From an uncultured Verrucomicrobiae bacterium (GTDB lineage: Bacteria > Verrucomicrobiota > Verrucomicrobiia > Limisphaerales > Palsa-1400), in NCBI GenBank assembly GCA_963707025.1, contig CAVPOM010000005.1, forward strand, positions 512,001 to 576,000: a DNA stretch of 64,000 nucleotides, in the 5' to 3' direction. How positions within the stretch are numbered: the first letter of the stretch is position 1; every line of letters begins with the position of its first letter. The position numbers and the translations under genes are program-made. The notes below the pieces were generated by a model that worked only from the letters and a program-made list of their open reading frames with translations, was not told the DNA's origin and did no database searches. Of the stretch, positions 26,420-47,878 are shown one piece after another.

Positions 26420-26863
26420 GCCTGAATTCAGACTGGGGACAGATAGCCGGGGGAAAAGGGCGGTCCGTTGCCCCGGCCGGGTTGGAGCAGGCGCGGGGAT
26501 TGCCGGCAGCCGTTGCCATTGGCGCAAGCCAGCCCTTGCCGCCAGCTCCGGCAAGCATGGCCTGCTAAACCACCATGTGGCCCAACCACACCTCCGCCCC
26601 GTGGTTGCGCCATCGTTTCCTGCGAGATCAGATTCGGGCATCAGACAACCATTCACCGCGGGCTGGATTGCGACAACTGCACATCTCAGGGAACGCCGCT
26701 TCAAATGTTATCATCATTATTAGCACAAGTGTCGCCGGTCGTAAAGCAAATTCCTCTGCGCAAGCCATTTCGGGCATTTTCCCTCTCTCCCCATGGGGAG
26801 CGCAGGCCGCCTCCAAGCCGGCTTTTGGCGGGCATTGGGGGGGAACCCAAAATGCGCAGCAAA

Positions 26864-27443: not shown

Positions 27444-27449
27444 CCTGTC

Positions 27450-27680
27450 ATCAAACTCCAGAAGCCGCCGGTCAAAGAAGAACGGCCGCCGGTCATCGGC
27501 CCGCTGGCGTCGTGCTGGCCGATGGTGCCGCTGAGGGAATAGTGGCCGTTGCTGCTCGTGCCGCCGCCGCCGCTGATTTTATACCAGCCAATGGAGTATT
27601 GTTGGGCGTGGAGGGCCGGGGCCAGCAGACCCAGCGCCAGGGTGAAGCCAAGAAGTTCTTTCAGAGTGTTGATAATTAGG
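27450..27680 (-). pseudogene. Decayed copy of the small secreted partner protein (paralogue of 35925-36377)
   Basis: Reads 'ALHAQQYSIGWYKISGGGGTSSNGHYSLSGTIGQHDA...LTGGFWSL'; no ATG at the paralogous position and the C-terminal domain is absent. Confidence 0.8.
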
Positions 27681-28838
27681 ATGCGTTGATCGGGTTAATT
27701 GCCAACCGTGGCGGCACCACCCCCCGCGGTTATAGTCATCGGTTTGGAGATGGTCAGGGTTTCAGAACTCGATCCCGCCGTCTTTATGAAAATAGTTCCG
27801 TAGTTGGAGACCGCATTCACTGCTTTGGTCATAGTGTTGAAAGGGGTGTCATAAGCTCCATCCTGAATCGTCCCGGTGAAGTTGAAATCAACAAAGCAGG
27901 GGCCGGCGTAACCAACCAGGGCATTAATCAAATTGGTGCCAGTGGGCGATCCCCATCCGGTGCAAAGATCGTAACCAGGTGCGGCATAGTAAACATTGGG
28001 ACTATTGCTCCAAGTATTGTTTCCATTCGTGATGTCATGGAAGCAACTGGCATAACCGGAGCCCTTGGCAATGGCGTAAAGGGCGGGATTAATAAAGCCA
28101 TCGCGTGGTTTTCCCTGCGCCGTGGCTTGCTGATTTACCAGCGCGTTGAAGCCCGCCCAAAGCGGGGAGGCAAAGCTGGTTCCCCAGGAAGTCCAAGCCG
28201 TTCCCGGACTGGCCACGCCATTGGTGCTGTAAACGGTCAGTATCACCAGAATTTGGTCCGCAACCATCGCAACGTCCGGACCATTTCTAAACTGAGTCGA
28301 GCCCATATTGGCCGTCATACTGATCCCCAATTGGTAATCTGGAATGGGCTCGTTGGTGAAGTATCCACCGGCGCTGGCGAATTGCCCCCCCTCGCTGGGG
28401 TTGTTCCAGACAGTCTCGGCACTCCAATACCCGCCGGAATTGGTCAACTCCGTTCCACCCACTTGGGTAATGTCTGGCTCGGCATTTTCATTACTGGAAG
28501 CATCTCCTGACTGCGTCGGAAAGGCACCCCCGTCCCCCAGGGCCAAAAAGAAAGACTGCCCCTGGATGGCAAATCGAACGAAGTTGTTAATGGACGCCGA
28601 GTCTGGCGAAAAGACCCAGGAACAATTTATCTGATGAGGCAGTGGTTCACCCTGCTCAGGCTCGGCCATTTCGTCAAAAATAGTGTTGCCAGATCCATCA
28701 GCGCCGGGGTCGCCTTCATAGACATTCAGAGCTTTGATTCCCGGGGCCATGGCCAACACCATCTCAATGTCCCCGGAGATTTCGACATCATTTGGTTGTG
28801 GGGCCTGATTGTTGGTGATATCATTCAAAAACACATTG

Positions 28839-30289
28839 CACAGCCATCCCACAGGAAATTGGAAAAAAGTGTTGGCTTGACCATTTGAACCTGCCACAAG
28901 GCAGGCATGAAAAACAAAAAAATCAAACCAACACGGTCCCGGTTTAACGTTTTGCGCCAGATTTGCAATCTCATTCCTGCGCATGAAGTCTCCAAAATAG
29001 CGCGGGAGACCGGGGCTCTGGATAAGTCGCGCACCTTCAGTCCGTGGAGTCACACGGTCAGTTTGCTGGACGCGCAACTCACCCATTGCATCGGACTCAA
29101 CGATCTGTGCGACTCGCTGCAATTGCATTCCGGGCCGCTGTCCACTTTGCGCGGCGCCAGCGCCCCCAGCCGCAACGGCCTCTCCCACGCCAACCGGGAG
29201 CGTCCGGCCCAGATGGCCGAACAACTCTTCTGGCGGGTCCTGGAGCATTTGAAAGCACAGACGCCCGGCTTTGCCGCGGGCCAGCGCCGTGGCCCCGCCT
29301 TCCGTTTCAAGATGCCCATCCATGTGATTGATAGCACGACCATGGAACTGGTGGCCAACTGCCTGGACTGGGCCAAGCACCGCCGGCGCAAGGCCGCCGC
29401 CAAAACCCATATGCGGTTGAATCTGCAGAATCTTTTGCCCGGTTTTGTCATTGTGGACACTGCCGCCGAGCACGACAACCGACGGGCGCGGGAACTGTGC
29501 GCCGACTTGAAGAGCGGCGAAATCGCCTTGTTCGACAAGGGTTATGTGGACTTCGGCCACTTGCGGGATTTGGACGGGCGCGGGGTCTTTTGGGTGACGC
29601 GGGCCAAGGAGAACATGGGCTATGAGGTGGTGCGGAAAATGCCCGCCTCCAGAGACCCGAAGATTTTGCGCGACGAAGTGATCGTCCTGAGCAACGAGAA
29701 CAAACCCGCGCCGGAGTTGATGCGCCGGGTGGTGGCGCTGGTCGAGATTGATGGAGAGGAACGGGAAATGACCTTCCTGACCAACAACCTGGAGTGGAGT
29801 CCGCGCAGCGTGGCCGACCTTTACCGCTGCCGCTGGCAGATCGAAGTCTTCTTCAAACAAATCAAGCAGACCTTGCAGTTGGCGGATTTTCTGGGCCACA
29901 ACGCCAACGCCGTGCGCTGGCAGGTGTGGACGGCGCTGTTGACCTACGTGCTGTTGCGCTACCTCAGTCACCTCTCCAACTGGGCGCACAGCTTCACCCG
30001 GCTGTTCACGATTTTGCGGGCGGCGCTCTGGGAGAAATATGATCTGCTCAATTTGCTGGCGTGCTATGGGACAGCAGGCGGCAGCTTTCGCCACTTGGCG
30101 CGGCCCGAGCAGGCGTATTTCCCCGGCTTCCAATAAAGCTATGGGACAGCACACGCGCCCAAACAGGCGCATACCAAACCCAAAAGCCAAACTCGGAAAA
30201 ATCAAAATCTCATTTTACCCCGAAGACCAATTAAACCCTTGCAAATGAACAGGTCAGCACCAGACTTTTCCCCTTATGAGACGGGTGTG
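28839..30289 (+). mobile_element. IS4-family insertion sequence, copy 1 (1451 bp)
   Basis: 9-bp target duplication AACACATTG (28830-28838 and 30290-30298); imperfect inverted ends CACAGCCATCCCA / CACACCCGTCTCA. Confidence 0.93.
28907..30136 (+). CDS. IS4-family DDE transposase
   Basis: 'VIDSTT', 'LFDKGY', and the YREK signature 'LYRCRWQIEVFFKQIKQ'. Confidence 0.95.
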   Translation: MKNKKIKPTRSRFNVLRQICNLIPAHEVSKIARETGALDKSRTFSPWSHTVSLLDAQLTHCIGLNDLCDSLQLHSGPLSTLRGASAPSRNGLSHANRERPAQMAEQLFWRVLEHLKAQTPGFAAGQRRGPAFRFKMPIHVIDSTTMELVANCLDWAKHRRRKAAAKTHMRLNLQNLLPGFVIVDTAAEHDNRRARELCADLKSGEIALFDKGYVDFGHLRDLDGRGVFWVTRAKENMGYEVVRKMPASRDPKILRDEVIVLSNENKPAPELMRRVVALVEIDGEEREMTFLTNNLEWSPRSVADLYRCRWQIEVFFKQIKQTLQLADFLGHNANAVRWQVWTALLTYVLLRYLSHLSNWAHSFTRLFTILRAALWEKYDLLNLLACYGTAGGSFRHLARPEQAYFPGFQ

Positions 30290-31106
30290 AACACATTGTT
30301 AATCGTCGGGATGTCTGGATTACCCGCATTGGTTTCATATTGGTAGATATCACTGTAGTTGTAACCATTGTACTCAAACAAGCCAACCACTTCGCCGGCG
30401 CCATTAAGGGATGTCCCGGGAGCATAGGCACCCCGGAAATCGTTTCCACTAAAAAGGCCGCCACTGGAACCACCGTTGCCATAACTCGTCAGGTTCAATG
30501 CCTGGCGGGAGGTCACGGGTCTGCCCGAGCCATAGGGGTGTGGGATGATATAATTGTTCAAATCGCTGATGCACAGGACGGGGATGTCCTGGTCAACCGA
30601 CGGTTCGGTATCCGGCGCAAAAAAGGTGCGGGCCTCCGTGGGGTGCTGGTACACCAGCATTTTCAGATGCAGCGCCCTCTCGATGTCGGCCACCGAGGCC
30701 TTCACTTCCACCAAACTGCGGCTCGTGCGCGTACCCACAACTGTCCAGCCGTTGGTTTTGGCGAAATGGATGACCGCCTGATAATCCTCCGCAGACGGCC
30801 CAAACTTTTCCGTGAATTCTTCGGGTGTCAGATAGCGGTGGAAATTCGTGCCGGCCGGGTTATAGATGTCCCGGAATAAATTGCCTCGTGCTGCAGCATT
30901 GCGCGGCGGCAGATTGATCACGAGGTGCAACAGGTTGGTGGCGGCCAGCCAGGCCCAATGGCTGCAGGTTGAACTGCGCCACTGCGGCTGGCACATGACC
31001 CTGGAGCATTTGTCTTTCCGCCGCCGGGGCTGGGGTCGCGGGCAGTAAAACCAGCAACAGGCCTGCCGCCATTTTGGATAGTTTGTTTATCATAATCGCG
31101 CCTCGA

Positions 31107-31244
31107 TTATTGAAGAGTGACCAGCACCAGCACCATGCCCTGGCCTGCGCTCAATCCCGTCATCGCTTTGCCCAGAATCGCACCCTGGGCTCGGACGTGG
31201 TCGGTGACTTTCATGGCCCGGCCCGGAGTGCTGGAAGTGGTCAG
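31107..31244 (-). pseudogene. C-terminal remnant of a fibre protein (chaperone tail)
   Basis: 'LTTSSTPGRAMKVTDHVRAQGAILGKAMTGLSAGQGMVLVLVTLQ' closely matches the ends of 33090 and 38337. Confidence 0.85.
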
Positions 31245-31321
31245 CGTAATCAACCGCGGCGAAATTAGGAGCGGGACGATTTTATTCAGGACGATCATAA
31301 ATTGGCATCAAGTTGATTTGT

Positions 31322-33061
31322 CTATTGACCAATGGTGGCCGTGCCACCAACCGCCACAATCGTCATGGCTTTGGTAATTGTCGGGGTTTCACTGCTCGAC
31401 CCGTTGCCTTTGATGGCAATTGTTCCACCGACAGCAACAGCGCTTATTCCCTGCGCCAGAGTCGAGTATGGATTGGCGAAGGTGCCGAACTGGAAAATCC
31501 CAGCGTAGTTGAAATCCACCCAGACCGGCCCAATAAACGGCACTGGGTCGGAGGCGATGCCATTGGCCACCACCACCATGGAATAGCTACCCTGTGGCAG
31601 GTTAGGTGACGCCAGGAATTCTGTGGTCACAATATTGGTTCCAGTCTGGACTCCGGTGCTGCTCCAGTTGAAAGTTCGCCCGTAATATACATTGCCGTTC
31701 GCATCGGTCATGCGAACCAAAGGATAATTGCTGTCCATTTGCGCGTCATCACCGTACGCAGCGCCCTCGGAAATGCCGTTAAGCCCAGTGCCGGTCAGCA
31801 GATAAGAACCGTCTGAATTCAAAGCGACGCTGATGATGGCGGGCTTCCCGGCGGCCAAAGGGCCGGAGCCAGGTGTGTAAACGTACAGGTCGGAACCTTG
31901 ATGGGCGTATAACACGGTTCCGTCCGGAAGATCGAGCATGGTGGTTTGGAAAGTGGCAACGTTATCTGATGAGCCGGGCGTCGGATTGCCAGGAGCCGGG
32001 ATATTGGTGTTAAACGAATTTGCGGCGTAGTCATATTCATAAAAAAATGTTGGCGCGTTGTAATCTAAGTAATTGCCGACGGCGCACAAAATCTTTCCAT
32101 TGACCATCATGGCTCCACTGGAGTCAGCAGTTCCCAAGCCGTTCGGAATGACTGGGCCATCCGTCCAACTGCCAAAATTGGTGCTTCCGGAAGGGGTGTA
32201 AATGGCCGTTACAGGCGGCCCACCAATAAAAAACACATTCCCATTTGGAAGCAGAAAGCCCGGCCCGATTTCCCCCAAAGCTAAGGAGAATAACTGCTCC
32301 GGCAAGTCTTCGTCATCAATCCATTCGCCAAGAGGCGCGTTCAATGACGGGATGTAGCGCTGAGATTTCAGATCACCCCGGAGGGTAAGCTCACTGCCAT
32401 CGGAAAGCTTAACCATGCTTTGTTCATCGGCATTAGCGTCGCCCTGAGCCAGTTTCGGCCCAGAGTAGATCGTGTTCGAAGAAGGGTCGAAGATTACTGT
32501 GTAGCCATTTTTGGCCGGTTCTACCGGTGTTATAAGCACTCGGCCGTCCTGCAAAGTGAAAGACATTGAATCAACAAAGCCGTACTCATTGTTCCCTCCA
32601 CTACCTACCACGGGGTTCGTGGTTATCAGACCAGGCGGAACCGGGATGATGGTCCAGGTATTGAGCTGGGGATCGTAAACCTCCGCATTGGTGGTCCCGT
32701 CACCGTACTCCCCTCCCGCCACGAAGACTCTGCCATCGCGCAGAACGTCCGACGAGTACCATGTCCTGTTGCAATGCATGGAAGTGAGATTTGTCCACGA
32801 CCCATTGACATAACTGCCATGTATATCAGGTGTCAACTTGTACCATGCATTTCCGATGTCGCCGGTAGTGCCATCGTTATTTGCGGCCATGACCGTGCCA
32901 TCCGGCATCAACAACATCAAACAAACCGCACCCGGTGCGGGGTTTGCCAGTTGAGTCCAGGTTCCCGCTATCGCAAGCGAGGGAAGCAGCAGTGCGAAGA
33001 AAATCAGCGCCTGTCCATTCAATCGGACCACGTCGCGAAAGGTTGAGTAATATTTTCTCAT
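31322..33061 (-). CDS. Secreted Kelch/beta-propeller protein with the C-terminal module shared with the adjacent S53 peptidases
   Basis: Signal peptide; 'LRDGRVFVAGGEY...AEVYDP..NTW', 'LLPNGNVFFIGG' repeats; tail 'VWVDFNY...PYSTLAQGISAV..GGTI...SSSETPTITKAMTI'. Confidence 0.85.
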   Translation of the reverse strand: MRKYYSTFRDVVRLNGQALIFFALLLPSLAIAGTWTQLANPAPGAVCLMLLMPDGTVMAANNDGTTGDIGNAWYKLTPDIHGSYVNGSWTNLTSMHCNRTWYSSDVLRDGRVFVAGGEYGDGTTNAEVYDPQLNTWTIIPVPPGLITTNPVVGSGGNNEYGFVDSMSFTLQDGRVLITPVEPAKNGYTVIFDPSSNTIYSGPKLAQGDANADEQSMVKLSDGSELTLRGDLKSQRYIPSLNAPLGEWIDDEDLPEQLFSLALGEIGPGFLLPNGNVFFIGGPPVTAIYTPSGSTNFGSWTDGPVIPNGLGTADSSGAMMVNGKILCAVGNYLDYNAPTFFYEYDYAANSFNTNIPAPGNPTPGSSDNVATFQTTMLDLPDGTVLYAHQGSDLYVYTPGSGPLAAGKPAIISVALNSDGSYLLTGTGLNGISEGAAYGDDAQMDSNYPLVRMTDANGNVYYGRTFNWSSTGVQTGTNIVTTEFLASPNLPQGSYSMVVVANGIASDPVPFIGPVWVDFNYAGIFQFGTFANPYSTLAQGISAVAVGGTIAIKGNGSSSETPTITKAMTIVAVGGTATIGQ

Positions 33062-33089
33062 GGGTTTATTTTTAGAGCGGACATCGTGA

Positions 33090-35672
33090 TTATTGCAGCG
33101 TGACCAGCACGAGCACCATGCCCTGGCCTTCCTGCAGTGTGGACATGGCCTTGCCGAGGATCGCGCCAGCGGCTCTGGCGTGGTCGGTCACTTTCATGGC
33201 CCGGCCCGGCATGCTTGAAGTGGTCAGCAAGTCGCCCGGTTCGATGGCCCCGTTGGAGGCGTCGGCTTGAACATAAACACGCCCGGTCAGGGCCACATTC
33301 CTTCCGCCTTCGAGCAAGCCCTGCTGCTGCATCCTGATTCCAGGTTTGATTCCGTTGGCGCCGCTGACGACGCCAGCCACACGGGTGTCATACGGTCGGT
33401 CGGTTAATTTCAACTGACCTGGATGCGCCGCGTCAATCACCACCACCGCGCCTTCGGTAACCGGCTGCTCCCCCGCAGAGATCGAAAACGGCTCCGCCAG
33501 GTCGGAACCACCGGTAATGATGATTTCTGTACAGGTAACTGAAGTGCATATCGGACTTTGAATCGTCCCGGCAATGAAGGTCTTGGTCTGGTCGGCGCCA
33601 ATGCGGATGACGGCGCTATCCGTGGAAGCGCCCAGACTGCCGATATAGATATTGTCGCTGCCACTGCTGAGACTAACGCCCGCGCCGAAACCGATTGCGA
33701 TATTGAAATCACCACTCTTATTGCCAGAAAGCGCAGACTCCCCAACAGCCGTGTTGTATACTCCACTCGTATTGGCAGAAAGCGCAGAATCGCCAATGGC
33801 CGTGTTGTATTCGCCACTCGTGTTGGCGGCAAGCGCCAAATAGCCGTTGGCCGTGTTGCCATAGCCGACGGTGGTTAACTGGAGGGCTTGATAACCGATG
33901 GCCGTGTTCTCACCGTTGTCCGAAGTACTGCCTTGAGCATAAGCATTGTCGTTCTCAAGAGCATGATAGCCAATGGCCACGAGTTGATTGTCATTCGTGC
34001 AATTCCCCAGCGCCAGATCGCCCAAGGCCACGTTTTGATAGCCAACTTGATTCAATTTCATCGCATCATGACCCATGGCCGTGTTCTGGTAGCCGCTCGT
34101 GTTGTTGTTAAGCACATTATAGCCATCGGCCGTGTTGAAATAGCCGCTCGAGTTGGCGTAAAGCGCTTCGTAACCATTGGCCGTGTTGTTGTAGCCGCTG
34201 GTGTTGGACAGGAGCGCCCAGTAGCCATTGGCCACATTATTTGAGCCGGTCGAGTTGTTATACAATGCCTCATAGCCCAAGGCCGTGTTGTCGTTGCCGA
34301 CGGTGTTGTTTCCCAGAGCGCCGGCACCCACCGCCGCGTTGAATGAGCCACCGCCGTTCTGCGAAAGAGCGGCATAGCCAAGCCCCGTGTTAGCGGCACC
34401 GGTGGTGGTAAAATTACCGGCGAACGGCCCGGCGTAGAAGTCAAAGTCGTTGTCGGCAATTAAAAGTCTGTTGCCGCCGTAATAAATGGCGGCCGGCCCC
34501 GGCCCCGGCAAATTCAGATTGCCGCCGACCGTCACACTGCCAAAGGTCACGCTCGGTTCGTTGTTCGTCACCAGGCCGGCTGGCAATTGCGTTGATGAAA
34601 AAGCGCCGGTTAAATTTGTTGCGTTGAGATTGGTCAGGCCCGCGCCGTTGCCGGTGACGACGCCGGCAATCAACGCCTGGGTCTGGCCGGTGCCAATGCG
34701 GATGATATTGGTGTCCGTGGCCAGGCCCATGTTCCCAATGTCAATGTTGGAACTGCCGGTGGTGATATTGTAACCGGCTTGGTAGCCCAGCGCGATGTTG
34801 TAGCTGCCGAGACCGTTGAGGCTGTAAAGCGACTGATAGCCGTTGGCCGTGTTGTAGCTGCCGGTGCCGTTGGACCAGAGCGCATATTCGCCAATGGCCA
34901 CATTGAACGAGCCGCTCGAGTTGTTGCCCAGCGCCAAGGCGCCGAAGGCGGAGTTGTTTTCGCCGACGCTGTTCATATACATCGCCAAATAGCCAACGGC
35001 CGTATTTTGGTAGCCGCTGCTGTTGTTGATTAGCGCCAAATAGCCGACCGCTGTGTTGTCGTAGCCAATCATGTTGTCGTAAAGCGCCTGGAAGCCATAG
35101 GCCGTGTTGGCGTTGCCAGTCGTGTTTCTGCTAAACGCCTGAAAGCCATCCGCCGTGTTGTAGGAGCCGCTCATCGTCGAATTGCCCGACGGACCGACGA
35201 AGAAGTTCTCACTAAGAGTGTAGTTGGTATTGCCGATGCTTGTCAATTGAGAGGCCGACAAGGTGCCGCTCAAATTGCTGGAGTTTTCCGCATAAATTGC
35301 ATACGGCACGGGCGTCAGTTCCTGACGCGGCGTCAACGGGGTGAAACTGCTGACGCCATTGCTTTCCACGCCAATCTGCAACCAGTCGGTCGCGCCAGTG
35401 AACACACCAGAGCCAAAATCAATCAGCACCGTGAACAGGCCGTTGGTGACAATGACGGCGTTGTTGGTCACCGGCCCGGCCATGGCGACACCGCCGGTGT
35501 TGGTGTTGAACAGCGAGAAGGTCAGATTATAGGTGCCGCTGGCCGGACTACCGTTGTCTTGGAGCTGGCCTTGATAGGTGAAGGCCGTGCCCTGGGCGAG
35601 CACCGGCTGGATGGAGAGGAGCAGGCCGCCCAAAGCGGCCGCGGGCGCGAGACGCGCCAACAGGTTTTTCAT
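33090..35672 (-). CDS. Secreted fibre-like protein: conserved N-domain, 14-aa YadA-head-like repeats, peptidase-G2-like chaperone tail
   Basis: Signal peptide then '[11 protein letters not shown]...NGLFTV.IDFG...PVPYAIYA'; tandem 'YNTAxGxxALxxNxxG'; 'GGSDLAEPF...GDLLTTS..PG.AMK'. Start at ATG 35672. Confidence 0.8.
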   Translation of the reverse strand: MKNLLARLAPAAALGGLLLSIQPVLAQGTAFTYQGQLQDNGSPASGTYNLTFSLFNTNTGGVAMAGPVTNNAVIVTNGLFTVLIDFGSGVFTGATDWLQIGVESNGVSSFTPLTPRQELTPVPYAIYAENSSNLSGTLSASQLTSIGNTNYTLSENFFVGPSGNSTMSGSYNTADGFQAFSRNTTGNANTAYGFQALYDNMIGYDNTAVGYLALINNSSGYQNTAVGYLAMYMNSVGENNSAFGALALGNNSSGSFNVAIGEYALWSNGTGSYNTANGYQSLYSLNGLGSYNIALGYQAGYNITTGSSNIDIGNMGLATDTNIIRIGTGQTQALIAGVVTGNGAGLTNLNATNLTGAFSSTQLPAGLVTNNEPSVTFGSVTVGGNLNLPGPGPAAIYYGGNRLLIADNDFDFYAGPFAGNFTTTGAANTGLGYAALSQNGGGSFNAAVGAGALGNNTVGNDNTALGYEALYNNSTGSNNVANGYWALLSNTSGYNNTANGYEALYANSSGYFNTADGYNVLNNNTSGYQNTAMGHDAMKLNQVGYQNVALGDLALGNCTNDNQLVAIGYHALENDNAYAQGSTSDNGENTAIGYQALQLTTVGYGNTANGYLALAANTSGEYNTAIGDSALSANTSGVYNTAVGESALSGNKSGDFNIAIGFGAGVSLSSGSDNIYIGSLGASTDSAVIRIGADQTKTFIAGTIQSPICTSVTCTEIIITGGSDLAEPFSISAGEQPVTEGAVVVIDAAHPGQLKLTDRPYDTRVAGVVSGANGIKPGIRMQQQGLLEGGRNVALTGRVYVQADASNGAIEPGDLLTTSSMPGRAMKVTDHARAAGAILGKAMSTLQEGQGMVLVLVTLQ

Positions 35673-35924
35673 AGATTTCGTTTTTGGCTGTGGAGTCGTT
35701 GGACGTGAACGCGGTGTTGCCAGGATTAAAGGCTCACAGCCACGAAACCCGGAATAGTGACAACCCGTCAAATCTCACACACATTGCGCTAATTGCAACC
35801 AGTATCTTTTCTCATTGCCACATTTCCGCATTCTCCATTCTCCGCTTCCTGGCCGCTGGAAACATGCGGCTCCGCCAACGGAGCACGTCAGACTTCCGGC
35901 GTCAGACAGGTGGCGGGAGACGTT

Positions 35925-36377
35925 TTAGGGATGGCTCAGGCGGAAAAAGAGATTTCCCTTCGGTGGCGCGTTGGTCACGCTGTTATTGACGACCGGGCCG
36001 GTGTAGTTGCCCCAAGGGGTCGTGCCGACCTGGCTGTTGGTTTGGAGCGTCCAACCGCTTGAAGGCAAGGGCCAGGAGACGACCGCTTGACCGCCGGAAA
36101 AAGTGATCGTCAACAAGGGCGCGCCGGGTGTTTGCACCACGGCAAGCAAACTCCAGAAGCCGCCCGTCAAGGAATAATTGCCCCCGGCCATCGCCACCCC
36201 GGCGTCGTGCTGGCCGATCGTGCCGCTGACGGAATACTGCCCGTTGCTGCTTGTGCCGCCGCCGCCGCTGATTTTATACCAGCCAATGGAGTATTGTTGG
36301 GCGTGGAGGGCCAGCCCCAGCAGAATCAGCGGCAGGGTGAAAAGGATCATCTTTTTCAAGGTGATGCTACGAGACAT
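35925..36377 (-). CDS. Small secreted fibre-associated protein with a C-terminal F[FY]R module
   Basis: Signal peptide; 'YSIGWYKISGGGGTS...SGTIGQHDAG...LTGGFW'; tail 'VVSWP...WTLQ...GNLFFRLSHP'. Confidence 0.8.
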   Translation of the reverse strand: MSRSITLKKMILFTLPLILLGLALHAQQYSIGWYKISGGGGTSSNGQYSVSGTIGQHDAGVAMAGGNYSLTGGFWSLLAVVQTPGAPLLTITFSGGQAVVSWPLPSSGWTLQTNSQVGTTPWGNYTGPVVNNSVTNAPPKGNLFFRLSHP

Positions 36378-36390
36378 GGGTTTGATGGGG

Positions 36391-38322
36391 TCAATTGCCG
36401 ATGGTGGCCGGGCCGTCCTGGGAGGTGATGGTCATCGGTTTTGAAATGGTCATGGTTTCGGAACTGGAGCCGGCAGTTTCGATGAAGATGGTTCCTCCTG
36501 AAGTGACAGCACTTACGCCGCCCCCCAGGGTGTTAAATGGCTGATAATAACTTCCGGTCTGGGTGCCGGAGTAGTTGAAGTTAACAAAGACGGGGCCGGC
36601 GTATCCGACGAGGGCCTTGATGAGGTCCGCGCCCGCGGGCGATCCCCATCCAGTGCAAAGATCGTAGCCTGGCTTGGCGTAGTAGAGACTTGGGCTGTTG
36701 CTCCATGTATTATTCCCGTTGGTGATGTCGTGGAAACAGGAAGAATACAATGAACCTTCGGCAACGTTGTAGAGGGCGGGGGTGACAAAGCCGACCGGTG
36801 GCAGCCCCTGCTCCGCGGCCTGCTGATTCACCAGGGCCATAAACCCAGCCCAGAGCGGCGCCGCACAGCTTGTGCCAGCTTCGTCCTGGAAAATCCGCAC
36901 TCCGTTGGTGGTAGTAAATACGTCCAGGACACCGTCCGCCGCCGCGGCGACATCCGGAACATTACACTTGGCCGAGGATCCGCCATTGGCGCTCATATCG
37001 ACGGACTGTTGATAAAGCGGGATTGGAATCGGGGTCAGGATTCCGCCGGAGCTGCCGTTCGGACCGCCGCTTGGTCCGCTTTGTCCCCAGACCGTTTCGC
37101 CAGTCCAGGTTCCTCCGTCGTAAGTCAGCACCAATTCCGTACCTCCCACCTGGGTCATATACGGTTGCAGGTCAGCGGCAGAGGCTCCGTTAATATAGGT
37201 TCCTCCGGGACCATTGGGATCAACCGGCAGCGCGCCCTCATCACCCATCGCATAGAAATAGGACTGGCCCTGCACGGCCAATCGGAGGCAACAATTGGAA
37301 GTCGCGCCATCGGTGCCACTCCCATAGGAGGAACTGATCTGGAGAGGCAATGGCTCACCATTGGTCGGATCCGCCATGGAGGTTAAGACGCCATCCAGGT
37401 CACTGTAGTAGCCGTAATAGAAAACCACTTTTTGGAGGCCGGGGGCCATGGAGATGGCCATTTCAATGTCCAGCGACGCCTCCCCATCTCCGTCAAAGGA
37501 AGGAATGTGGGGGTAGCCGTCCACCAGCACCTCCTGCACAGGGACATTCGGCAATCCGGCCGTCGCTTCGTAGGCGAGAATGTCGTTGGTGCTGTAGCCT
37601 TCTTGGAACTCAATCAAGCCGACCACTTGTCCGGAGCCCTCATTGGTCGTGCCAGCGGCGTAAGCATGTCTAAAATCGGAGCCCATCAGTAATTGTTGCC
37701 CATTCGGGTCATAAGAGCCTCCGCCATACTTGGGAGCTTGACTATTGTCGTGAGCATGGGCTTTGGCATGGGGCAATTCATAGTCATTCAAACCGCTGAT
37801 GGCCAGGACCGGGACGGCCAAGTCCAGGGACGGCTCGACATCCGGCGCAAAAAACTGGCGTGCTTCGGTTGGGTGCTGATACAGGCGCAGCGTCAGATGA
37901 AAGGTCTTTTCAACGTCCGCCACCGCGCCCTCAACACTGACCAGGGTGCGGCCCGGATTGGTGTGAGTCACGGTCAAGCCGTTGGCCTTGACAAATTGGA
38001 TGACGGCCTGAAAATCCGCTTCTGTCGGCCCGAACCTCTCATTGAACTGCGCTGGAGTCAGATAGTGGCGGAAATTCGGGCTGGCCGGGTCGTAAATCCC
38101 CTTGAGCAACTGGCCCAGCGCTTCATTATTGCGCAGCGGCAGACTTATCCCGAGGTGCAGAAGATTGGTGGCCGCCAGCCGGCCCAGCGGCTGCAAGTTG
38201 CGCTGGGCCACGGCGGCCGGCACATGGCCTTGCAGCACTTGTCTTTCCGCCGCCGCCAGGGAAGCGACCGACAGAAAGAGCAGTGCCAGGCTGGTGGCCA
38301 TTTGCGAGAGTGTCTTCTTCAT
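36391..38322 (-). CDS. Secreted S53 peptidase with the shared C-terminal module
   Basis: Pro-domain; 'EASLD', 'GDEG', 'AGTSCAAP', 'GYDLCTGWGSP'; tail 'VFVNFNY...PFNTL..GVSAV..GGTI...SSSETMTISKPMTI'. Confidence 0.92.
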   Translation of the reverse strand: MKKTLSQMATSLALLFLSVASLAAAERQVLQGHVPAAVAQRNLQPLGRLAATNLLHLGISLPLRNNEALGQLLKGIYDPASPNFRHYLTPAQFNERFGPTEADFQAVIQFVKANGLTVTHTNPGRTLVSVEGAVADVEKTFHLTLRLYQHPTEARQFFAPDVEPSLDLAVPVLAISGLNDYELPHAKAHAHDNSQAPKYGGGSYDPNGQQLLMGSDFRHAYAAGTTNEGSGQVVGLIEFQEGYSTNDILAYEATAGLPNVPVQEVLVDGYPHIPSFDGDGEASLDIEMAISMAPGLQKVVFYYGYYSDLDGVLTSMADPTNGEPLPLQISSSYGSGTDGATSNCCLRLAVQGQSYFYAMGDEGALPVDPNGPGGTYINGASAADLQPYMTQVGGTELVLTYDGGTWTGETVWGQSGPSGGPNGSSGGILTPIPIPLYQQSVDMSANGGSSAKCNVPDVAAAADGVLDVFTTTNGVRIFQDEAGTSCAAPLWAGFMALVNQQAAEQGLPPVGFVTPALYNVAEGSLYSSCFHDITNGNNTWSNSPSLYYAKPGYDLCTGWGSPAGADLIKALVGYAGPVFVNFNYSGTQTGSYYQPFNTLGGGVSAVTSGGTIFIETAGSSSETMTISKPMTITSQDGPATIGN

Positions 38323-38336
38323 GATTTTCGCCTCCG

Positions 38337-40460
38337 TTATTGCAAGGTGACCAGAACCAGCACCATGCCTTTGCCTTGGTTTAGCCCCGTCATGGCTTTG
38401 CCCAGAATCGCGCCCTGGGCCCTGGCGTGGTCGCTGACCTTCATGGCGTGGCCGGGGGTTGCGGAGGTCGTCAACAAATCACCCGGATTGATGGCGCCGT
38501 TGGCCGCGTCGGCCAGGACGTAAACCCGTCCGGTGAGAGCGACGTTTTTGCCGCCTTCGAGCAAGCCTTGCTGTTGCATCTGGATGCCGGGATTGACGCC
38601 GTTGGCGCCACTGAGAACGCCCGCCACGCGGGTGTCGTAGGGTTGGCTGCTCACTCGCAAATGCCCTGGATGGTCCTGGTCAATCACCACCACCGAGCCT
38701 GGGGGAAATTGGCCGGAAGGGCTTGAAACCGCAAACGGCTCGGCCAGGTCGGAACCGCCTTCGATGGTAATGGAACTGCAAAAGATATGCATGTAGGTGC
38801 TGTTGCCCCAGTTGTAAAAGGCGACGTTGGCGATGCTGCTGTTCATGCTGCCGATCTGCACGTCGCTGCCCGAACCATTGCCGCCGATGTAGGCGTCTAT
38901 GGGGCCGGCCCCGTTGAACGCGTTGGCCCCGGTTATTTGCGCGAAATTGCCGCGCACGGTCAGGGAGTCGGCGGAGAAGTTGTTGCTGACCCAGACATTG
39001 CCCGTATAGTCCCAACTCAAACTGATCTCATTCGGTGCAACGGTGCCCAGCGACCCGCCATTGAAACCGTAAAGAAACGGGCCAGCTCCGCCGGGGACTG
39101 CAATCAGCCCGGTTGTGTCATAGACCAGTCCGTTATCCGTGTCGCCTCCGTCCAATGCAATGGTGCCGGCAACGTAAGTCGCGGTTTGGACGCCCGGCGT
39201 GCCGAGACGGATGATGCTGTTATCGCCGGAAGATCCCGCGTTGCCGATGTCAATGTTGTTATTGCCGTTGAGGATGTTGTAACCCGCCTGATAACCCAAG
39301 GCGATATTGCCGCTGCCGCTCGAGTTGGCCAGGAGCGCCAGAGAGCCATCAGCGGTGTTGCGGGAGCCGGTCGTGTTCTGCCAAAGCGCTTGAAAGCCAT
39401 TGGCCACGTTATTGGAGCCGGTCGAGTTGTTTTCCAGCGCCTGAGCGCCACTGGCGGTGTCGAAGGTGCCGGCCGTGTTGACATTCAGCGCGAAGGCCCC
39501 GCTGGCGGTGTTGTAAGAGCCGGAAGTGTTGCCATATAAGGCCCGATAGCCGGTGCCGGTGTCTTGAAAGCCGGTGGTGTTGGCGAGAAGCGCCTGGGAA
39601 CCGACGGCGGTGTCCTGACTTTGATTGGTATTATTAAGCAACGCCTGAAAACCGACAGCCACGTTGTTGCCACCGGTGGTATTGAAGAAAAGCGCCCCCG
39701 CGCCATCCGCCGTGTTCTGGAAGCCGTTGGTGTTGGAGAAAAGCGCATCGGTGCCGGTGGCCGTGTTGTTGGCGCCGGTGGTGTTGGCGACAAGCGCATC
39801 AAAGCCAACGGCGGTGTTGTCCGCGCCGCTGGTGTTGGCGAAAAGCGCGCCCGCGCCATCGGCCGTGTTGTAGGAGCCGTTGGTGTTGGCGGAAAGCGCG
39901 CCCACGCCTTGAGCCGTGTTGTAGGAGCCGGTGGTGACGGAGAAAAGCGTGCCAAAACCCACCCCCGTGTTTTCAGACCCGCTCAGCGCGGAATTGCCGG
40001 AATTCTGACCGGCAAAGAAGTTCAGCGATCCATAATTGTTCAGCAGAGCGGTGGAGCCGGCACTCTCGGCGTAAATGGCGTAAGGGCTGGGCGTCAATTC
40101 CACGCGTGGACTCAAGGGCGTGAAAGTCGCGCCGGCGCCGTTGGTGCGCACGCCGATTTGCAGCCAGTAGGACGTGCCGTCAAAGACAGCGCCAAAGTCC
40201 ATGGTGATGATGAACAGCCCGTTGCTGACGGGCACGGCCAAATTGGTGTAGAGCACACTGGCCAGAACCCCGCCGGTGCTGGCGGGGTAGAGACTGGTGC
40301 GAATGTCGTAAAGCCCGTTGGCCGGGGCGCCGGAGTCCATCAACTGGCCTTCATAGGCGAACGCCGTGCCCTGGGCGAAAGCGCTGGAGAGTTGTGAGTT
40401 GAGAGTGGCCAGCGCCAGCAAGGCCAGCGCGCTGGACCAGCGGGGTGATCTGGTTTTCAT
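38337..40460 (-). CDS. Secreted fibre-like protein with YadA-head-like repeats and peptidase-G2-like tail
   Basis: Same N-domain and 'GGSDLAEPF...VLVLVTLQ' tail as 33090, with a different middle. Start at ATG 40460. Confidence 0.8.
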   Translation of the reverse strand: MKTRSPRWSSALALLALATLNSQLSSAFAQGTAFAYEGQLMDSGAPANGLYDIRTSLYPASTGGVLASVLYTNLAVPVSNGLFIITMDFGAVFDGTSYWLQIGVRTNGAGATFTPLSPRVELTPSPYAIYAESAGSTALLNNYGSLNFFAGQNSGNSALSGSENTGVGFGTLFSVTTGSYNTAQGVGALSANTNGSYNTADGAGALFANTSGADNTAVGFDALVANTTGANNTATGTDALFSNTNGFQNTADGAGALFFNTTGGNNVAVGFQALLNNTNQSQDTAVGSQALLANTTGFQDTGTGYRALYGNTSGSYNTASGAFALNVNTAGTFDTASGAQALENNSTGSNNVANGFQALWQNTTGSRNTADGSLALLANSSGSGNIALGYQAGYNILNGNNNIDIGNAGSSGDNSIIRLGTPGVQTATYVAGTIALDGGDTDNGLVYDTTGLIAVPGGAGPFLYGFNGGSLGTVAPNEISLSWDYTGNVWVSNNFSADSLTVRGNFAQITGANAFNGAGPIDAYIGGNGSGSDVQIGSMNSSIANVAFYNWGNSTYMHIFCSSITIEGGSDLAEPFAVSSPSGQFPPGSVVVIDQDHPGHLRVSSQPYDTRVAGVLSGANGVNPGIQMQQQGLLEGGKNVALTGRVYVLADAANGAINPGDLLTTSATPGHAMKVSDHARAQGAILGKAMTGLNQGKGMVLVLVTLQ

Positions 40461-40534
40461 AAGCGATTCAGGGTTCAGTCCGCCTCGGGAGGGCGACAGC
40501 CTCAAGAGGGCGGCGATTAACTGCTTGAGTTTTC

Positions 40535-40569
40535 ATCCTACCATTCACCCAAGTTAAGGTCAACTTAAA
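40535..40569 (-). promoter_or_regulatory. Sigma70 promoter with a direct-repeat regulator box, copy A
   Basis: TTGACC-17 bp-TAGGAT with an extended TG; TTTAAG-N5-CTTAAC overlaps the -35. Confidence 0.7.
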
Positions 40570-40723
40570 AAGCGCATTAGCCATTGGCCAAACGCTGAAA
40601 CCGCGTTGCGCCGCGGGAACAGCCACGCCGGGTCTGGTCCAAAGGTTGATCCGGGCAGGCCAAATCTGAGTGGCTGTCAATTTGCTCAAGCGGCCTGAGC
40701 CGACGCCACCTTCTTCGCAGGAT

Positions 40724-40870
40724 GCCGCCGCCGCTGATTTAATACCAGCCAATCGAGTATTACCGCCCCAAAGCCCGAAGGCAGAAGCAACTTTGCAGAA
40801 GCAGGACACACAGCAGCAGCTTCGCCGCCGGCCATCCGCCATTTCCAATCTTCAATCCTCGCGCGTTCAT
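40724..40870 (-). pseudogene. Nonsense-inactivated remnant of the small secreted partner
   Basis: ATG overlaps the upstream stop; reads signal peptide then 'R*YSIGWY*ISGGG', with two TAA codons where the paralogue has Q and K. Confidence 0.75.
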
Positions 40871-43512
40871 TGGGCGCTTCCTTTCCTCCCGTTCATCAGT
40901 TGTTCCAGCTTTTCAAGACGTTGTTTCAATTCCTGAATCTCCGCGTCCTTCTCGTTGAGCTTCTGGTTCAAGCCCTGGATGGCGGCCAGGGCCACGCCCT
41001 CCTCGTCCACGGTGGCGATGTGTTTGTCATCGGCCCCGACATTGAAGGCGGCGTGGAAATCCTGAGCCATCGGCCCGATGTGCCGGGTGGCGGTGTCCAG
41101 CTTGAAACTCCACTCGGAGATGGGCAGCCGCGCCACCCGCGCCAGCACCTCCTGCGGGTCAATCCCGGTGAATTTCTCTTTGACGTCCCGGTCGCTGGTT
41201 GTCGTGAAAGTGACTGCCGAGACATTGCCGTTGGTGCCGGTGAGCACGATGGGCGGCTTGCCGCCAAGGATGGTGGAAGTGCCGCGCACGTCCAGATAAC
41301 CGCCCGCTGTGTTGTCCTTAGAGGGCCAGATTTCCAAGGCGTTGCGGAAGCGCATGTGGCCGGGGTAATTGATGCCCCCCACTACGATGCCCGGCGTAAC
41401 ATCATCATCGTTCTCAATGACCACCGTGCCCACTCCGGTGTCCACAGTAAATGGGGCATCAAAGGTGACGTTGCTCTCAGTTTTGGTGACCACCACGGCT
41501 GGCAAGGCCTGCAAGGGCACTGTGCCCGTGGTCAATTCCGAAGCGTTGAGATTGTCCAGTCCACTGCCATTCCCATTAAACGTGCCTGCCAGATTGCTGA
41601 TCACCATCGGCATATTCATGGCAACACGCTGTGGATAGACCAGCACCTCCGTCAGCGTATTGGTGCCGCTATTGGCGCTGAACAAATCCGGTGTGCCATC
41701 GTCGTTGACATCGGCGGCCACAACTTGCCAGGGGCCGGCTTCCACATGGATGGTGGCATAAAACCCAAAGATGCCGTGGCCATTGTTGGTCAGCACCGTC
41801 AACGAATCGTCGTCGGTATTGGCGGTGACCAAATCCGGCGCGCCGTCGCCGTTGATGTCCACCGCGATGACCGATTGCGGTTTAATTCCCACGTTCAGCG
41901 TGGCATTGGAACCAAAGACCCCGTGGCCGTTGTTGGTCAGCACGGTCAGCGTGTTTTCATAGGTTTCGGCACAAACCAAATCGGGTGAGCCATCGCCGTT
42001 GACATCCACCGCCACAACTGAAACCGGACTGTTGCTCACTGCGAGCGTGGCGTTGGAACCAAAGACGCCCTGGCCGTTGTTGGTCAGCACCGTCAATGTG
42101 CCGGAAGTGATATTGGCGCTGATCAAATCCGGCGCGCCGTCGCCGTTGATATCGGCCACCGCCACTTGATTCGGTCCCTCGCCCACGATGAGCGTGGCAT
42201 TGGAACCGAAGACGCCGCTGCCGTTGTTGGTGTACACGGTCAGGATGTTGGCGAACGTGCCAGAGGCAATCAAATCCACTGCGCCGTCGCCGTTGACATC
42301 CGCCGCCGCAACATAATATGGGCCGACTCCCACGTTGAGCGTGGCATTGGAAATAAAGCCGCCGTGGCCATTGTTGGTCAGCACCGTCAAGGTGCTGTCG
42401 CCGTTATTGGCGCAGATCAAATCCGGTTTGCCGTCGCCATTGACATCCGCCGCCACCACCGAAAGGGGAAAGTGGCCTACGTTGAGCGTGGCGATGGAAC
42501 CAAAAACGCCGTGGCCGTTGTTCGCCAGCACCGTCAACGTGTTGGAGCCTCCATTGGCGCTGACCAAGTCCAGTTTGCCGTCTCCGTTGACATCCACCGC
42601 GACAACCGAATATGGGTTGGCTCCCACGTTAAGCGGAAGGCCGGGGGTAAAGAGCGACGGCAGCAGGTTGAATGTTCCGGCCGGGCCAACCGACGAAAGG
42701 CTGATATTGGTCACCCCGGCCCCATTGCCGCTGAAACTACCGGTCAGCGCCACGTTGGCTGCGCCATTGGTCAATACGCTACTCGGCAACTGTCCCACCG
42801 GCAGCGTGCCCAGCAGATTGCTCGCGTTGCCGGCCACGACGGCGTACGGCGTGGGCGTCAAGTCCTGCACCGGACTCAGCGCGGCAAACCCGTTCACGCC
42901 GTCATTGAACCAAATGCGCAACTGCAGGCCGGATGCGTCCGTGAAGACGGAAACGGGGATGGCCGTCATGTTGGCCAGAGTCGTGTCGCCCAAAACCACG
43001 GTGAACAGGCCGTTGTTGACTCCCAGGCTCACCGCGTGGGCAGGTTGGCTGCCCGCGCTGCTGGTGCCGTCGTTGCTCCAGTAGGTTGTGAAGGAAAGGT
43101 CAACGGGGGGCGCGCCAATCGTCACGGTGGGCGTGCCGGTGTAACCGGAGCCGGGATTGTTCACCGTGATGGCGGTCACCGCCCCGCCGCTGACGCTGGC
43201 TGTGGCCGTGGCGCCCGAACCGCCGCCACCGGAAATGGTGACGGCGGGGGCGGTGGTGTAACCATTTCCGCCGAACGTGACGTTAATGACGGTGATGAAC
43301 CCGCCACTGGGAGGACTGGCCGTGGCGGTGGCCTGGCTGGCGACGTTCGAACTGGTGACCAGGGCGAACTTGAACTGCCCTGTGCCGCTGAAGTTGGTGC
43401 CGCCGTCCGTGACCAAGCCTTGATAGGTGAAGGCCGTGCCCTGGGCATGGGCGGAAAAGCAGATGGCGGAAAGCAGATGACAGATGGCGATAGACTTGAG
43501 TTTGATTTTCAT
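40867..43512 (-). CDS. Secreted fibre-like protein with seven FG-GAP repeats and a peptidase S74 intramolecular chaperone
   Basis: '[10 protein letters not shown]' N-domain; seven 'D[VI]N[GD]DGxxDL' repeats; 'TSDRDVKE...HIGPMAQDF...[10 protein letters not shown]' plus coiled coil. Confidence 0.88.
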
Positions 43513-43525
43513 AACTGGATTCCTT

Positions 43526-44518
43526 TCAATTTGATTTTCGGCTGAGAAGGATTCTTTCCAGCGCTTGGAGACGCAGCCTCAGTTCCATGTTCTCCGCATC
43601 GCGCCGTTTCAATTCCTCCTGGAGTTTCTGATTCAGCCCCTGAATGGGGGCCAGGGCCACGCCGCCTTCGTCCACGGTGGCAATATGCTTGTCATCCGGG
43701 CCGACGTTGAAGGCCGCGAAAAGATCCTGGGCCATCGGGCCGATGTGGCGCGTGCCGGCGTCGGCCTTGTAACTCCATTGGCTGATGGGCAGCGCCGTGA
43801 CCTTGTCCAGAATCTCCGCCGGACGCACCGCCTGGAAGCCTGGTTTGGCGTTGCGATCACTGGCGCTGACAAACGTCCCGCTGACCGTCAGCCCGCTGAG
43901 GGTGAGCTGCATCAACTCGGTGCCGCCGCTGCCCGGATCGTCGGTCGTATCACTGTGGCTGCCGCCGGGGAACCAGGCGAAGCCGGCGCTGGCGTGGGTG
44001 CGGAAATACTCCCGCGAGTTCTGGACCCCGATGCCGTAAGTGCTGGTCGAGAAATTGAGCATTTGCCGGGTCAGGTTTCCAAAGAACATGCTGGTGGAGG
44101 TGTCCGCTTGAATGCCTCCCTGCGCGCGGATGCAAAATTGAAAGTCAGCGGAGGAACCGAAATCAAAGACCTGGCCGTCCGACCAGACAAAACAGTTGTC
44201 GTTGGTCGCGGCTGCATTCAGGCCGGCGGCGAAGGACTCCAAGCCGCTGGCAAGATTGTCCACGCCGCCTGGAACTGTCGAACCGTAGGCGTCCGCCATG
44301 TTGCCGTTACCGCCGCCCACCGTCGCATCCCCGCCGTTGCTGGGATAAAGGCTGGTCCGAATGTCATAAAGGCCGTTGGCCAAAACACCGCTTTCCATCA
44401 ACTGGCCTTGAAAGGTGAAGGCCGTGCCCTGGGCGAAAGCGGGGGAAAGTGGCGCGTTGATGGTTGCAAGCGCGGGCAACGCCAGCGCGATGAACCAGCG
44501 GGGTGACCTGGTTTTCAT
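43526..44518 (-). CDS. Short secreted fibre-like protein with S74 chaperone; N-domain internally deleted
   Basis: First ~60 aa closely match the 40460 protein, then jump to 'ATVGGGNGN...'; S74 motif 'SDRNAK...HIGPMAQD'. Confidence 0.75.
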
Positions 44519-44593
44519 AGGCGATTCAGGGTTTCCATCCGCCTCGGGGCTGCGACGGCCTCCGGAGGACGGCGATTGACTGCTTAAGTTGTC

Positions 44594-44628
44594 ATCCTAC
44601 CACCAGCCCCGCTTAAGTTCAAGTTAAA
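44594..44628 (-). promoter_or_regulatory. Sigma70 promoter with a direct-repeat regulator box, copy B
   Basis: TTGAAC-17 bp-TAGGAT with an extended TG; TTTAAC-N5-CTTAAG overlaps the -35. Confidence 0.7.
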
Positions 44629-47706: not shown

Positions 47707-47878
47707 ATTTTTATAATGCGACCGGCAGGCGCCCCGGGTCAAGGCTCGCGCTTGCCGGTATAACCCATTCTGCGCAGTAATCGCCAATGCAAGCTGGTTG
47801 CACTCCGCTCCCTCTGGCCATGTCAGCCGATTTGGGTTTGCCAGTGAGTCGCGTTTAAGAGATTTTCAAGGTCAGAAT

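What the first reader, a model, noticed from the sequence alone, without database searches (positions are those of the whole stretch)
27450..44628. Repeated fibre / cargo / small-partner cassette array: candidate undescribed surface-fibre system
Seen: eleven co-oriented genes or remnants in the order fibre(S74), fibre(FG-GAP+S74), small(pseudo), fibre(G2-like), S53, small, fibre(G2-like), Kelch, fibre remnant, S53(IS-hit), small(pseudo). All intact members have Sec-type signal peptides. The fibres share one N-domain (QGTAF[TA][YF][QE]G...), the cargos share one C-terminal module, and the small gene recurs three times at unit ends. No capsid, portal, sheath, tube or autotransporter barrel is present. 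Known: S74 and G2 tails are self-cleaving chaperones that fold trimeric phage fibres, and Bdellovibrio displays S74-chaperoned mosaic fibres on its surface. Inference: a domesticated, modular adhesin system that pairs variable fibres with acid proteases or propellers, possibly anchored through the small protein.
Basis: partly seen in the sequence, partly recalled or inferred. Interest (0 to 1): 0.9.

Follow-up and report, generated by a model that had tools for sequence, protein, structure and literature searches.

The report
Enzyme-capped bacterial surface fibres
Soil and water bacteria of two phyla carry gene sets for a three-stranded fibre that appears to cut off its own folding aid and then receive, on the freed tip, a separately made protease or binding protein; this would be an undescribed way to hold enzymes out from the cell.

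Summary
The array is real and follows a strict gene grammar. Only fibres ending in a phi29-gp12-type (G2-like) self-cleaving domain are followed by a cargo with a 70-residue C-terminal 'cap'. That held for 40 of 42 scorable metagenome places, 24 of 27 in Phycisphaerae and 40 of 49 in Verrucomicrobiota loci, against 0 of 48 S74 fibres and 0 of 59 other fibres. The cap is an isolated beta-helix N-cap plus one rung. In a model of a homologous pair, one cap sits on the last nine residues before the cut in all three fibre chains (ipSAE 0.84, best control 0.00; binding supported, not shown). Cargos include ten peptidase families, propellers and unknowns, not only acid proteases. The small protein joins a conserved 55-residue domain to lineage-specific tails and tracks the fibres (59 of 61 genomes); its anchor role is untested. 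The fibre N-domain is a remote relative of the Bdellovibrio MAT N-domain, below that family's cut-off. In this window only F3-S53-small and F4-Kelch are intact units. Two earlier scan notes describe Bacteroidota-type fibres with partner genes; none describes the cap. Ten literature searches found no description.

The parts
43526..44518 (-). F1: short S74-tailed fibre (330 aa); N-domain truncated, probably a deletion derivative
   Evidence: Pfam S74; only positions 1-43 of 104 of the N-domain profile; first 63 aa 75% identical to F3
40867..43512 (-). F2: fibre with interrupted N-domain, FG-GAP repeat region and S74 chaperone (881 aa)
   Evidence: Pfam FG-GAP_3 (7 stretches) and S74; weak Bdello_MAT_N hit, E 0.0012
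40724..40761 (-). 12-codon remnant of a small-protein gene, with in-frame stop
   Evidence: 38 bases 94.7% identical to the intact gene
38337..40460 (-). F3: fibre (707 aa), full N-domain, repeat shaft, G2-like C-terminal domain; predicted self-cleavage S570|D571, putative catalytic E574
36391..38322 (-). S53a: sedolisin-family peptidase (643 aa) with C-terminal cap module at residues 572-643 (window 36394-36609); predicted cargo of F3
   Evidence: Pfam Pro-kuma_activ; E281, D361, S485 motifs present; cap model pLDDT 88
35925..36377 (-). Small protein (150 aa): signal peptide, 55-aa glycine-rich conserved domain, Verrucomicrobiota C-terminal domain; candidate tether
   Evidence: 7954 of 8000 candidates homologous; no Pfam on the 120 listed; its C-domain ends 36 of 37 ORFs that carry it in this genome
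33090..35672 (-). F4: fibre (860 aa), full N-domain, repeat shaft, G2-like domain; predicted cut after S723
   Evidence: Bdello_MAT_N E 3.6e-5 on the N-domain alone
31322..33061 (-). Kelch propeller protein (579 aa) with C-terminal cap module; predicted cargo of F4
   Evidence: Pfam Kelch; cap 56% identical to that of S53a
31110..31244 (-). Remnant: last 45 codons of a G2-like domain
   Evidence: 84% identical to the F3 and F4 C-termini
27695..31093 (-). S53b: broken second sedolisin gene with cap module (frameshift near 30950, IS insertion)
28839..30290 (.). Insertion sequence (DDE transposase), 8-bp target duplication, 45 near-full copies in the genome; not part of the system
27449..27667 (-). 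Truncated small-protein gene (signal peptide and N-domain only)
   Evidence: 77% identical over 73 aa

Best explanation
A secreted, modular enzyme-display fibre. (1) All parts leave the cytoplasm by Sec (signal peptides seen by eye). (2) The fibre trimerises with help from its C-terminal G2-like domain, which cuts itself off at G-G-[SA]|D (inferred from the structural match to phi29 gp12 and the invariant D and E; not shown). (3) The cut exposes the hydrophobic end of the triple-stranded beta tip. One cargo molecule caps it through its C-terminal single-rung beta-helix module, one strand against each chain (gene linkage shown; complex predicted, not measured). (4) The small protein binds the shared MAT-like N-domain and ties the fibre to the envelope through a lineage-specific tail (inferred from gene order and architecture only). 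The result is a stalk carrying an interchangeable peptidase, hydrolase or propeller. S74 fibres of the same loci use the same base but carry built-in tips.
For: Next gene is a cap-bearing cargo after 40 of 49 G2 fibres, 0 of 48 S74 fibres and 0 of 59 other fibres. In loci picked only by the small gene: 6 of 7, 0 of 33, 0 of 45. G2-anchored tests: Phycisphaerae 24 of 27 within 3.5 kb; metagenomes 40 of 42 places with at least 2.6 kb downstream, of 81. The pre-cut motif [LVI]xIxG(G)[SAC] is in 72 of 75 G2 fibres, and its [LVI]xIxG core in 0 of 48 S74 fibres; two of the three exceptions also lack cargo. G2 model matches 3gqh residues 692-854, Z 13.2, and mature gp12* ends at residue 691 (PMC6542822). 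Complex model: ipSAE 0.84, best of 3 controls 0.00, contacts agree at least 96% between runs, partner pLDDT at least 91; the mark was reached by 116 of 157 solved and 2 of 215 mismatched pairs. The contact residues are the conserved ones: fibre I126 in 68 of 68 rows; six cap positions hydrophobic in at least 94%. Small gene: 59 of 61 genomes with it have the fibre N-domain; it follows 32 of 48 S74 fibres directly; its tail is a Verrucomicrobiota C-domain or a dockerin-like domain.
Against: No experiment. The complex was modelled on a homologous pair (locus L054, also a G2 fibre with S53 cargo), with only 9 alignment rows for the fibre, in a format unlike the tool's calibration. The two sharpest controls (S74 tip + cap; uncut fibre + cap) could not be run, so generic beta-edge stacking is not excluded. 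Some loci have two or three cap cargos per G2 fibre, two G2 fibres per cargo, or the cargo upstream. Five of 49 G2 places had no recognised family member next. Seven further fibre N-domain ORFs or fragments in this genome have no small gene beside them, one small gene stands alone, and 23 of 77 small-gene loci show no fibre. Genomes are kin, so counts are not independent. The route across the outer membrane is unknown.
Confidence: 0.66

Rival explanations
1. Carrier and release: the cap binds fibre or G2 domain only for export or folding, and the enzyme, or the whole capped fibre, is then released instead of displayed.
For: The gene linkage fits any obligate pairing. The G2 fold ties with capsid decoration trimers that act as binding platforms (Z 13.1). 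The tether role of the small protein is untested, and many fibres lack an adjacent small gene.
Against: The model places the cap on residues that are free only after the cut, and these are specifically conserved in cargo-linked fibres. The small protein carries tails of a kind found at the C-terminus of secreted proteins.
Confidence: 0.17
2. The cargo is a maturation factor: a protease that trims the fibre, or a lid that only stabilises the cut tip.
For: Peptidases are the largest named cargo class: 22 of 56, 9 of 25 in Phycisphaerae. An open triple-beta end may need a lid.
Against: The G2 domain keeps its own cleavage motif. Cargos span unrelated catalytic classes and include propellers, GDSL and beta-lactamase-fold proteins. 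No stand-alone cap gene class was seen in these loci apart from frameshift fragments.
Confidence: 0.1
3. Prophage or tailocin remnant, or a chance collection of duplicated secreted-protein genes.
For: S74, G2 and shaft segments are phage-like. The window array is partly decayed and contains 73-80% identical duplicated blocks.
Against: Signal peptides; no phage structural families in the ORFs scanned. Viral contigs gave one distant G2 hit and no small gene. The same gene order occurs in two phyla.
Confidence: 0.03

Closest known systems
Bdellovibrio bacteriovorus MAT (mosaic adhesive trimer) fibres (Caulton et al. 2024, PMC10769870; passages and Discussion read)
   Same: Signal peptide, conserved N-domain, mosaic shaft, S74 and non-S74 ends. 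The Bdello_MAT_N model hits 27 of 84 N-domains at E<=0.1 and nine fibre genes and nothing else in this genome at E<=1.
   Different: Scores are far below the 60-bit cut-off. MAT tips are part of the fibre chain. No G2 end, separate cargo or anchor protein appears in the parts read; the paper says the surface element bound by the N-domain awaits identification.
phi29 gp12 neck appendage, C-terminal autocleaving chaperone (PDB 3gqh/3suc; Peptidase_G2 label recalled)
   Same: Same fold (Z 13.2, rmsd 2.6, 111 aligned); the conserved D aligns with residue 692, the first after mature gp12*.
   Different: gp12 is a virion part; no cap protein on its cut end appears in the passages read. Here the domain is on a Sec-exported cellular fibre with a dedicated downstream cargo.
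Phage S16/T-even gp37-gp38 fibre plus tip adhesin
   Same: A separately encoded protein attaches to the end of a trimeric fibre, gene next to gene (PMC9608196 passages).
   Different: gp38 attaches through three short N-terminal helices and is a receptor-binding adhesin. Here a C-terminal beta-helix rung is predicted to attach, and the load is mostly enzymes.
VgrG/gp5 spike capped by PAAR/gp5.4 (recalled; paper not held)
   Same: One monomer caps a triple-beta end with pseudo-threefold symmetry and can carry a payload.
   Different: No sheath, tube or baseplate here; different cap fold; Sec export.
N-terminal cap of right-handed beta-helix proteins (DUF1565; pectate lyase Pel9A, pectin methylesterase, phage 7-7-1 fibre 9rkv)
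   Same: Sequence and fold of the cap module (best Z 7.6, rmsd 3.0, 70 aligned).
   Different: There it starts a long helix. Here it is the last 70 residues of an unrelated protein, with one rung left open.

Membership tests
Bdellovibrio MAT fibres | Conserved N-domain after the signal peptide scoring above the NF053851 cut-off (60 bits) | tested here: not met
   Best 23.6-23.8 bits: a remote relative, not a member by the model
Bdellovibrio MAT fibres | Mosaic fibre: common N-domain with varied shafts and ends, S74 and non-S74 | tested here: met
Bdellovibrio MAT fibres | Homotrimer | tested here: inconclusive
   Tip fragment modelled as a trimer by design, pLDDT 84-85; S74 and G2 ends imply trimers
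Bdellovibrio MAT fibres | Surface exposure and prey-glycan binding | not testable with these tools
   Needs cells
phi29 gp12-type (G2) autocleaving chaperone | Fold of the gp12 C-terminal domain | tested here: met
   Z 13.2 to 3gqh, tied with a capsid decoration protein at 13.1; Foldseek lists 3suc and 3gqh
phi29 gp12-type (G2) autocleaving chaperone | D-x-x-E motif at the domain start, in register with the cut | tested here: met
   D and E invariant in 25 of 25 and 68 of 68 rows; D aligns to 692
phi29 gp12-type (G2) autocleaving chaperone | Pfam Peptidase_G2 match | tested here: not met
   No such hit for 25 members at E<=1
phi29 gp12-type (G2) autocleaving chaperone | Actual self-cleavage and release | not testable with these tools
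   Needs protein
Sedolisin (S53) | Pro-kumamolisin domain and E/D/S catalytic motifs | tested here: met
   for S53a
Prophage / tailocin / contractile injection system | Capsid, portal, sheath, tube or baseplate genes in the locus | tested here: not met
   None among 22 array-region and 23 flanking ORFs scanned with Pfam
Trimeric autotransporter adhesin | C-terminal membrane anchor barrel | tested here: not met
   Fibres end in S74 or G2-like domains; no anchor family hit

The most novel reading that the evidence does not exclude
A widespread 'enzyme on a stalk' system of Verrucomicrobiota and Planctomycetota: self-cleavage acts as a quality gate, after which any protein with the cap module can be plugged onto the fibre and held against substrates or neighbouring cells; and the 55-residue small domain is the general anchor for MAT-like N-domains, including the surface element still missing in Bdellovibrio.
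Probability: 0.35. Interest if true: 0.93.

Novelty: categorically new. Interest (0 to 1): 0.86.

Why it matters
The parts are known separately, but I found no description of a cellular fibre that gains a separately encoded enzyme on a tip freed by self-cleavage. If right, it adds a surface-display route for extracellular peptidases in two abundant, poorly cultured soil and water lineages. It gives a function to three large unannotated families (the small domain alone matches 4051 clusters at 50% identity). It defines a compact nine-residue-trimer plus 70-residue docking pair that is easy to test. It also offers a concrete candidate for the open question of how MAT-like fibres are held on the cell.

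Tried and rejected
Alignments for the window's own fibre tips misaligned to internal repeats (A7, A9, A10), so the single complex job used a homologous pair. The small-protein/N-domain complex was not modelled, as only one job was allowed. No natural fusion of small domain with fibre N-domain, or of G2 with cap, among the 509 stored proteins; one small+S74 chimera looked like debris. Small and N-domain profiles are unrelated. Solved-structure sequence searches: G2 profile none, small profile nothing significant, N-domain one weak hit (4mkm, E 4e-4), not followed up. ESM Atlas: small domain only leads under 0.9; N-domain clusters without Pfam, commonest Verrucomicrobiota and Myxococcota. Small domain: no match in plasmids; 5 of 151 genomes in a phylum-wide sample. 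No RNA holder was listed. Bdellovibrionota, Bacteroidota and Chloroflexota could not be searched for want of a genome handle. The Pfam TcdB_toxin_midN hit in F2 lies on the FG-GAP repeats with no passing stretch and is taken as overlap. The cap profile also picks ordinary beta-helix N-caps at lower scores, so C-terminal position was required in counts. Literature searches that found no description; most subscription papers are not in the library. Two text supplements of PMC10769870 had none of the lineage or G2 terms; one file was unreadable and its Supplementary Tables 3-4 were not located, so they may list related fibres.
Full report
Setting. The window is G000:C5:512001-576000. Named relatives of its proteins are Verrucomicrobiota and Limisphaerales. 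The flanks hold sugar-metabolism genes, oxidoreductases, large secreted proteins and insertion sequences; no phage structural family was hit among the ORFs scanned.

Observation. The eleven items are there, on the minus strand, with gaps of 13-28 bases inside units. Blocks of 73-80% DNA identity show tandem duplication of units. Decay is extensive. F1 keeps 43 of 104 N-domain positions. S53b has a frameshift and an IS with an 8-bp target duplication. Two small genes and one fibre are remnants. The intact units are F2, F3-S53a-small and F4-Kelch.

Four modules. (a) Fibre N-domain, about 105 aa. The NCBIfam model of the Bdellovibrio MAT N-domain hits nine places in this genome at E<=1, all fibre genes, none over the cut-off, and 27 of 84 aligned members at E<=0.1. 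(b) G2-like end. There is no Pfam G2 hit, but the model (pLDDT 82.5) matches the phi29 gp12 C-terminal fragment best (Z 13.2, rmsd 2.6, 111 aligned, residues 7-141 on 692-854), tied with a capsid decoration protein. Mature gp12* ends at 691 (PMC6542822, passages), so the invariant D marks the expected cut. That the nearby E is catalytic is recalled; the original paper was not held. (c) Cargo cap, about 70 aa. It resembles the start of right-handed beta-helices in sequence and fold (pLDDT 88; best Z 7.6, a middling value), but it is the C-terminus. (d) Small protein: a 55-aa conserved domain with thousands of relatives and no Pfam family. Its tail is a domain that ends 36 of 37 ORFs carrying it in this genome, or a dockerin-like domain in Planctomycetota (GC-type dockerin over the cut-off in 1 of the 10 small proteins scanned from that group, weaker in 6).

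Gene grammar. In 100 other genomes of the order, the small domain is in 61 and the N-domain in 68; 59 have both and 30 neither. By coordinates, 33 of 45 G2 places have a cap within 3.5 kb downstream; three misses lie at contig ends and two are weak divergent hits. On fetched DNA (L031-L169, two duplicate loci dropped), the next gene is a cap cargo after 40 of 49 G2 fibres, 0 of 48 S74 fibres and 0 of 59 other fibres. Part of that set was chosen for having caps, so three less biased sets matter. Loci picked by the small gene alone: 6 of 7, 0 of 33, 0 of 45. Phycisphaerae, where 13 of 121 genomes have the G2 end: 24 of 27 places, scored with a cap profile built without them; the misses are one divergent G2, one contig end and one frameshifted cargo. 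Metagenome loci picked by G2: 40 of the 42 places with at least 2.6 kb downstream, of 81. The small gene follows 32 of 48 S74 fibres and 30 of 61 cargos, and lies within 6 kb downstream of 13 of 27 Phycisphaerae places. A cap-less S53 gene at 15306-18101 in this window has no fibre beside it. Kinship inflates all these counts, but two phyla agree. Viral contigs gave one distant G2 hit and no small gene.

Cargos. Of 56 scanned (54 of 61 cap cargos plus 2 near-terminal ones), 22 are peptidases (S53, S8, S1, M4, M12A, M12B, M23, M43, C10), 6 propellers, 1 GDSL, 1 beta-lactamase fold and 26 unassigned. Of 25 from Phycisphaerae, 9 are peptidases, 4 beta-lactamase fold and 12 unassigned. Of 58 metagenome cargos, 18 are S53-like and 13 Kelch by local profiles; of the other 27, 24 were scanned and 11 are peptidases, adding C1 and M6.

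Docking site. The residues just before the cut carry a motif in 72 of 75 G2 fibres, and its core is in 0 of 48 S74 fibres. This suggested, before the model was run (note), that the one-rung cap closes the open triple-beta end. The single complex job used locus L054 (G2 fibre, S53 cargo, cap 59% identical to that of S53a): 130 residues up to the cut, three copies, plus one cap. Result: ipSAE 0.84 (0.85, 0.84, 0.84), best of three controls 0.00, contacts agreeing at least 96%, partner pLDDT at least 91. The mark was reached by 116 of 157 solved and 2 of 215 mismatched pairs; these counts hold only roughly here. The cap's last strands touch residues 122-130 of all three chains. The contact positions are the conserved ones: fibre I126 in 68 of 68 rows, and cap positions 43, 55, 59, 61, 68 and 70 hydrophobic in 94-100%. 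This supports binding and does not show it. A pass from likeness to solved beta-spike caps, or from generic beta-edge pairing, is possible.

Mechanism. Shown: the anatomy, the linkage and the conserved motifs. Predicted: the G2 fold and the 3:1 tip complex. Inferred: Sec export, self-cleavage, release of G2, and tethering by the small protein. The tether inference rests on the small gene following fibres of every tip type, which share only the N-domain, and on its exchangeable tails. Against it, this genome has 12 N-domain ORFs but two intact small genes, one standing alone, so it would have to act in trans or be optional. The purpose is probably digestion of outside protein or attack on surfaces at a distance from the cell; substrates are unknown.

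Comparison and novelty. It works like phage gp37-gp38 (PMC9608196, passages) and like VgrG-PAAR (recalled), on a MAT-like cellular fibre (PMC10769870, passages and Discussion; PMC13689555, passages, names no anchor). PMC4690869 (passages) confirms that gp12 uses a released intramolecular chaperone of a different fold from S74. It is not a formal MAT member, not an autotransporter and not a prophage. Ten searches found no description. Earlier scan notes on Bacteroidota-type fibres with secretion-tagged partners fit the tether idea but were not tested here. I rate the system as categorically new because no known kind combines a cell-made fibre, a cleavage-gated tip and interchangeable enzyme cargos. 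A stricter reader could file it as a new variant of MAT-like fibres.

Noticed in passing
genome G000: C1:63850-65448, C3:113684-116314, C6:57588-59585, C9:55039-57813, C12:46603-49177, C13:35452-41067: Further fibre genes with the same or a related N-domain, without adjacent small or cargo genes; several are frameshifted or partial.
   Followed up: partly
genome G000: C9:274271-274693: A stand-alone intact small-protein gene with no fibre nearby.
   Followed up: partly
window 28839-30290 and 47878-49328: A DDE insertion sequence with 45 near-identical full copies in the genome, a recent expansion.
   Followed up: partly
window 43100-43400 and 1758-1952: A 50-70 aa glycine-rich insert inside the N-domain of F2 also occurs in a large secreted protein at the window start and matches several phage virion-protein families.
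   Followed up: no
L160:5539-14823, L159, L161, L162, L163; P0434, P0466: The small 55-aa domain also starts large proteins (up to 3095 aa, with tandem-95 and other repeats), some next to fibre genes, so the putative tether can carry its own passengers.
   Followed up: partly
P0366, P0453, P0470: Proteins with two tandem small domains followed by a dockerin or, in P0453, a hydrophobic-plus-basic tail that looks like a C-terminal sorting signal by eye.
   Followed up: no
L203, L206, L214 small genes: A third, unassigned cysteine-bounded tail type on the small domain in one Phycisphaerae genome.
   Followed up: no
window 19817-26704 (-): A 2295-aa secreted protein combining Ig, laminin G, PA14 and a diheme cytochrome c-like region, ending in the Verrucomicrobiota C-domain.
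   Followed up: no
window 15306-18101 (-): A third S53 peptidase without the cap module, with a weak choice-of-anchor C match and no fibre neighbour.
   Followed up: partly
About half of the cap cargos have no Pfam family: a pool of uncharacterised secreted domains.
   Followed up: no
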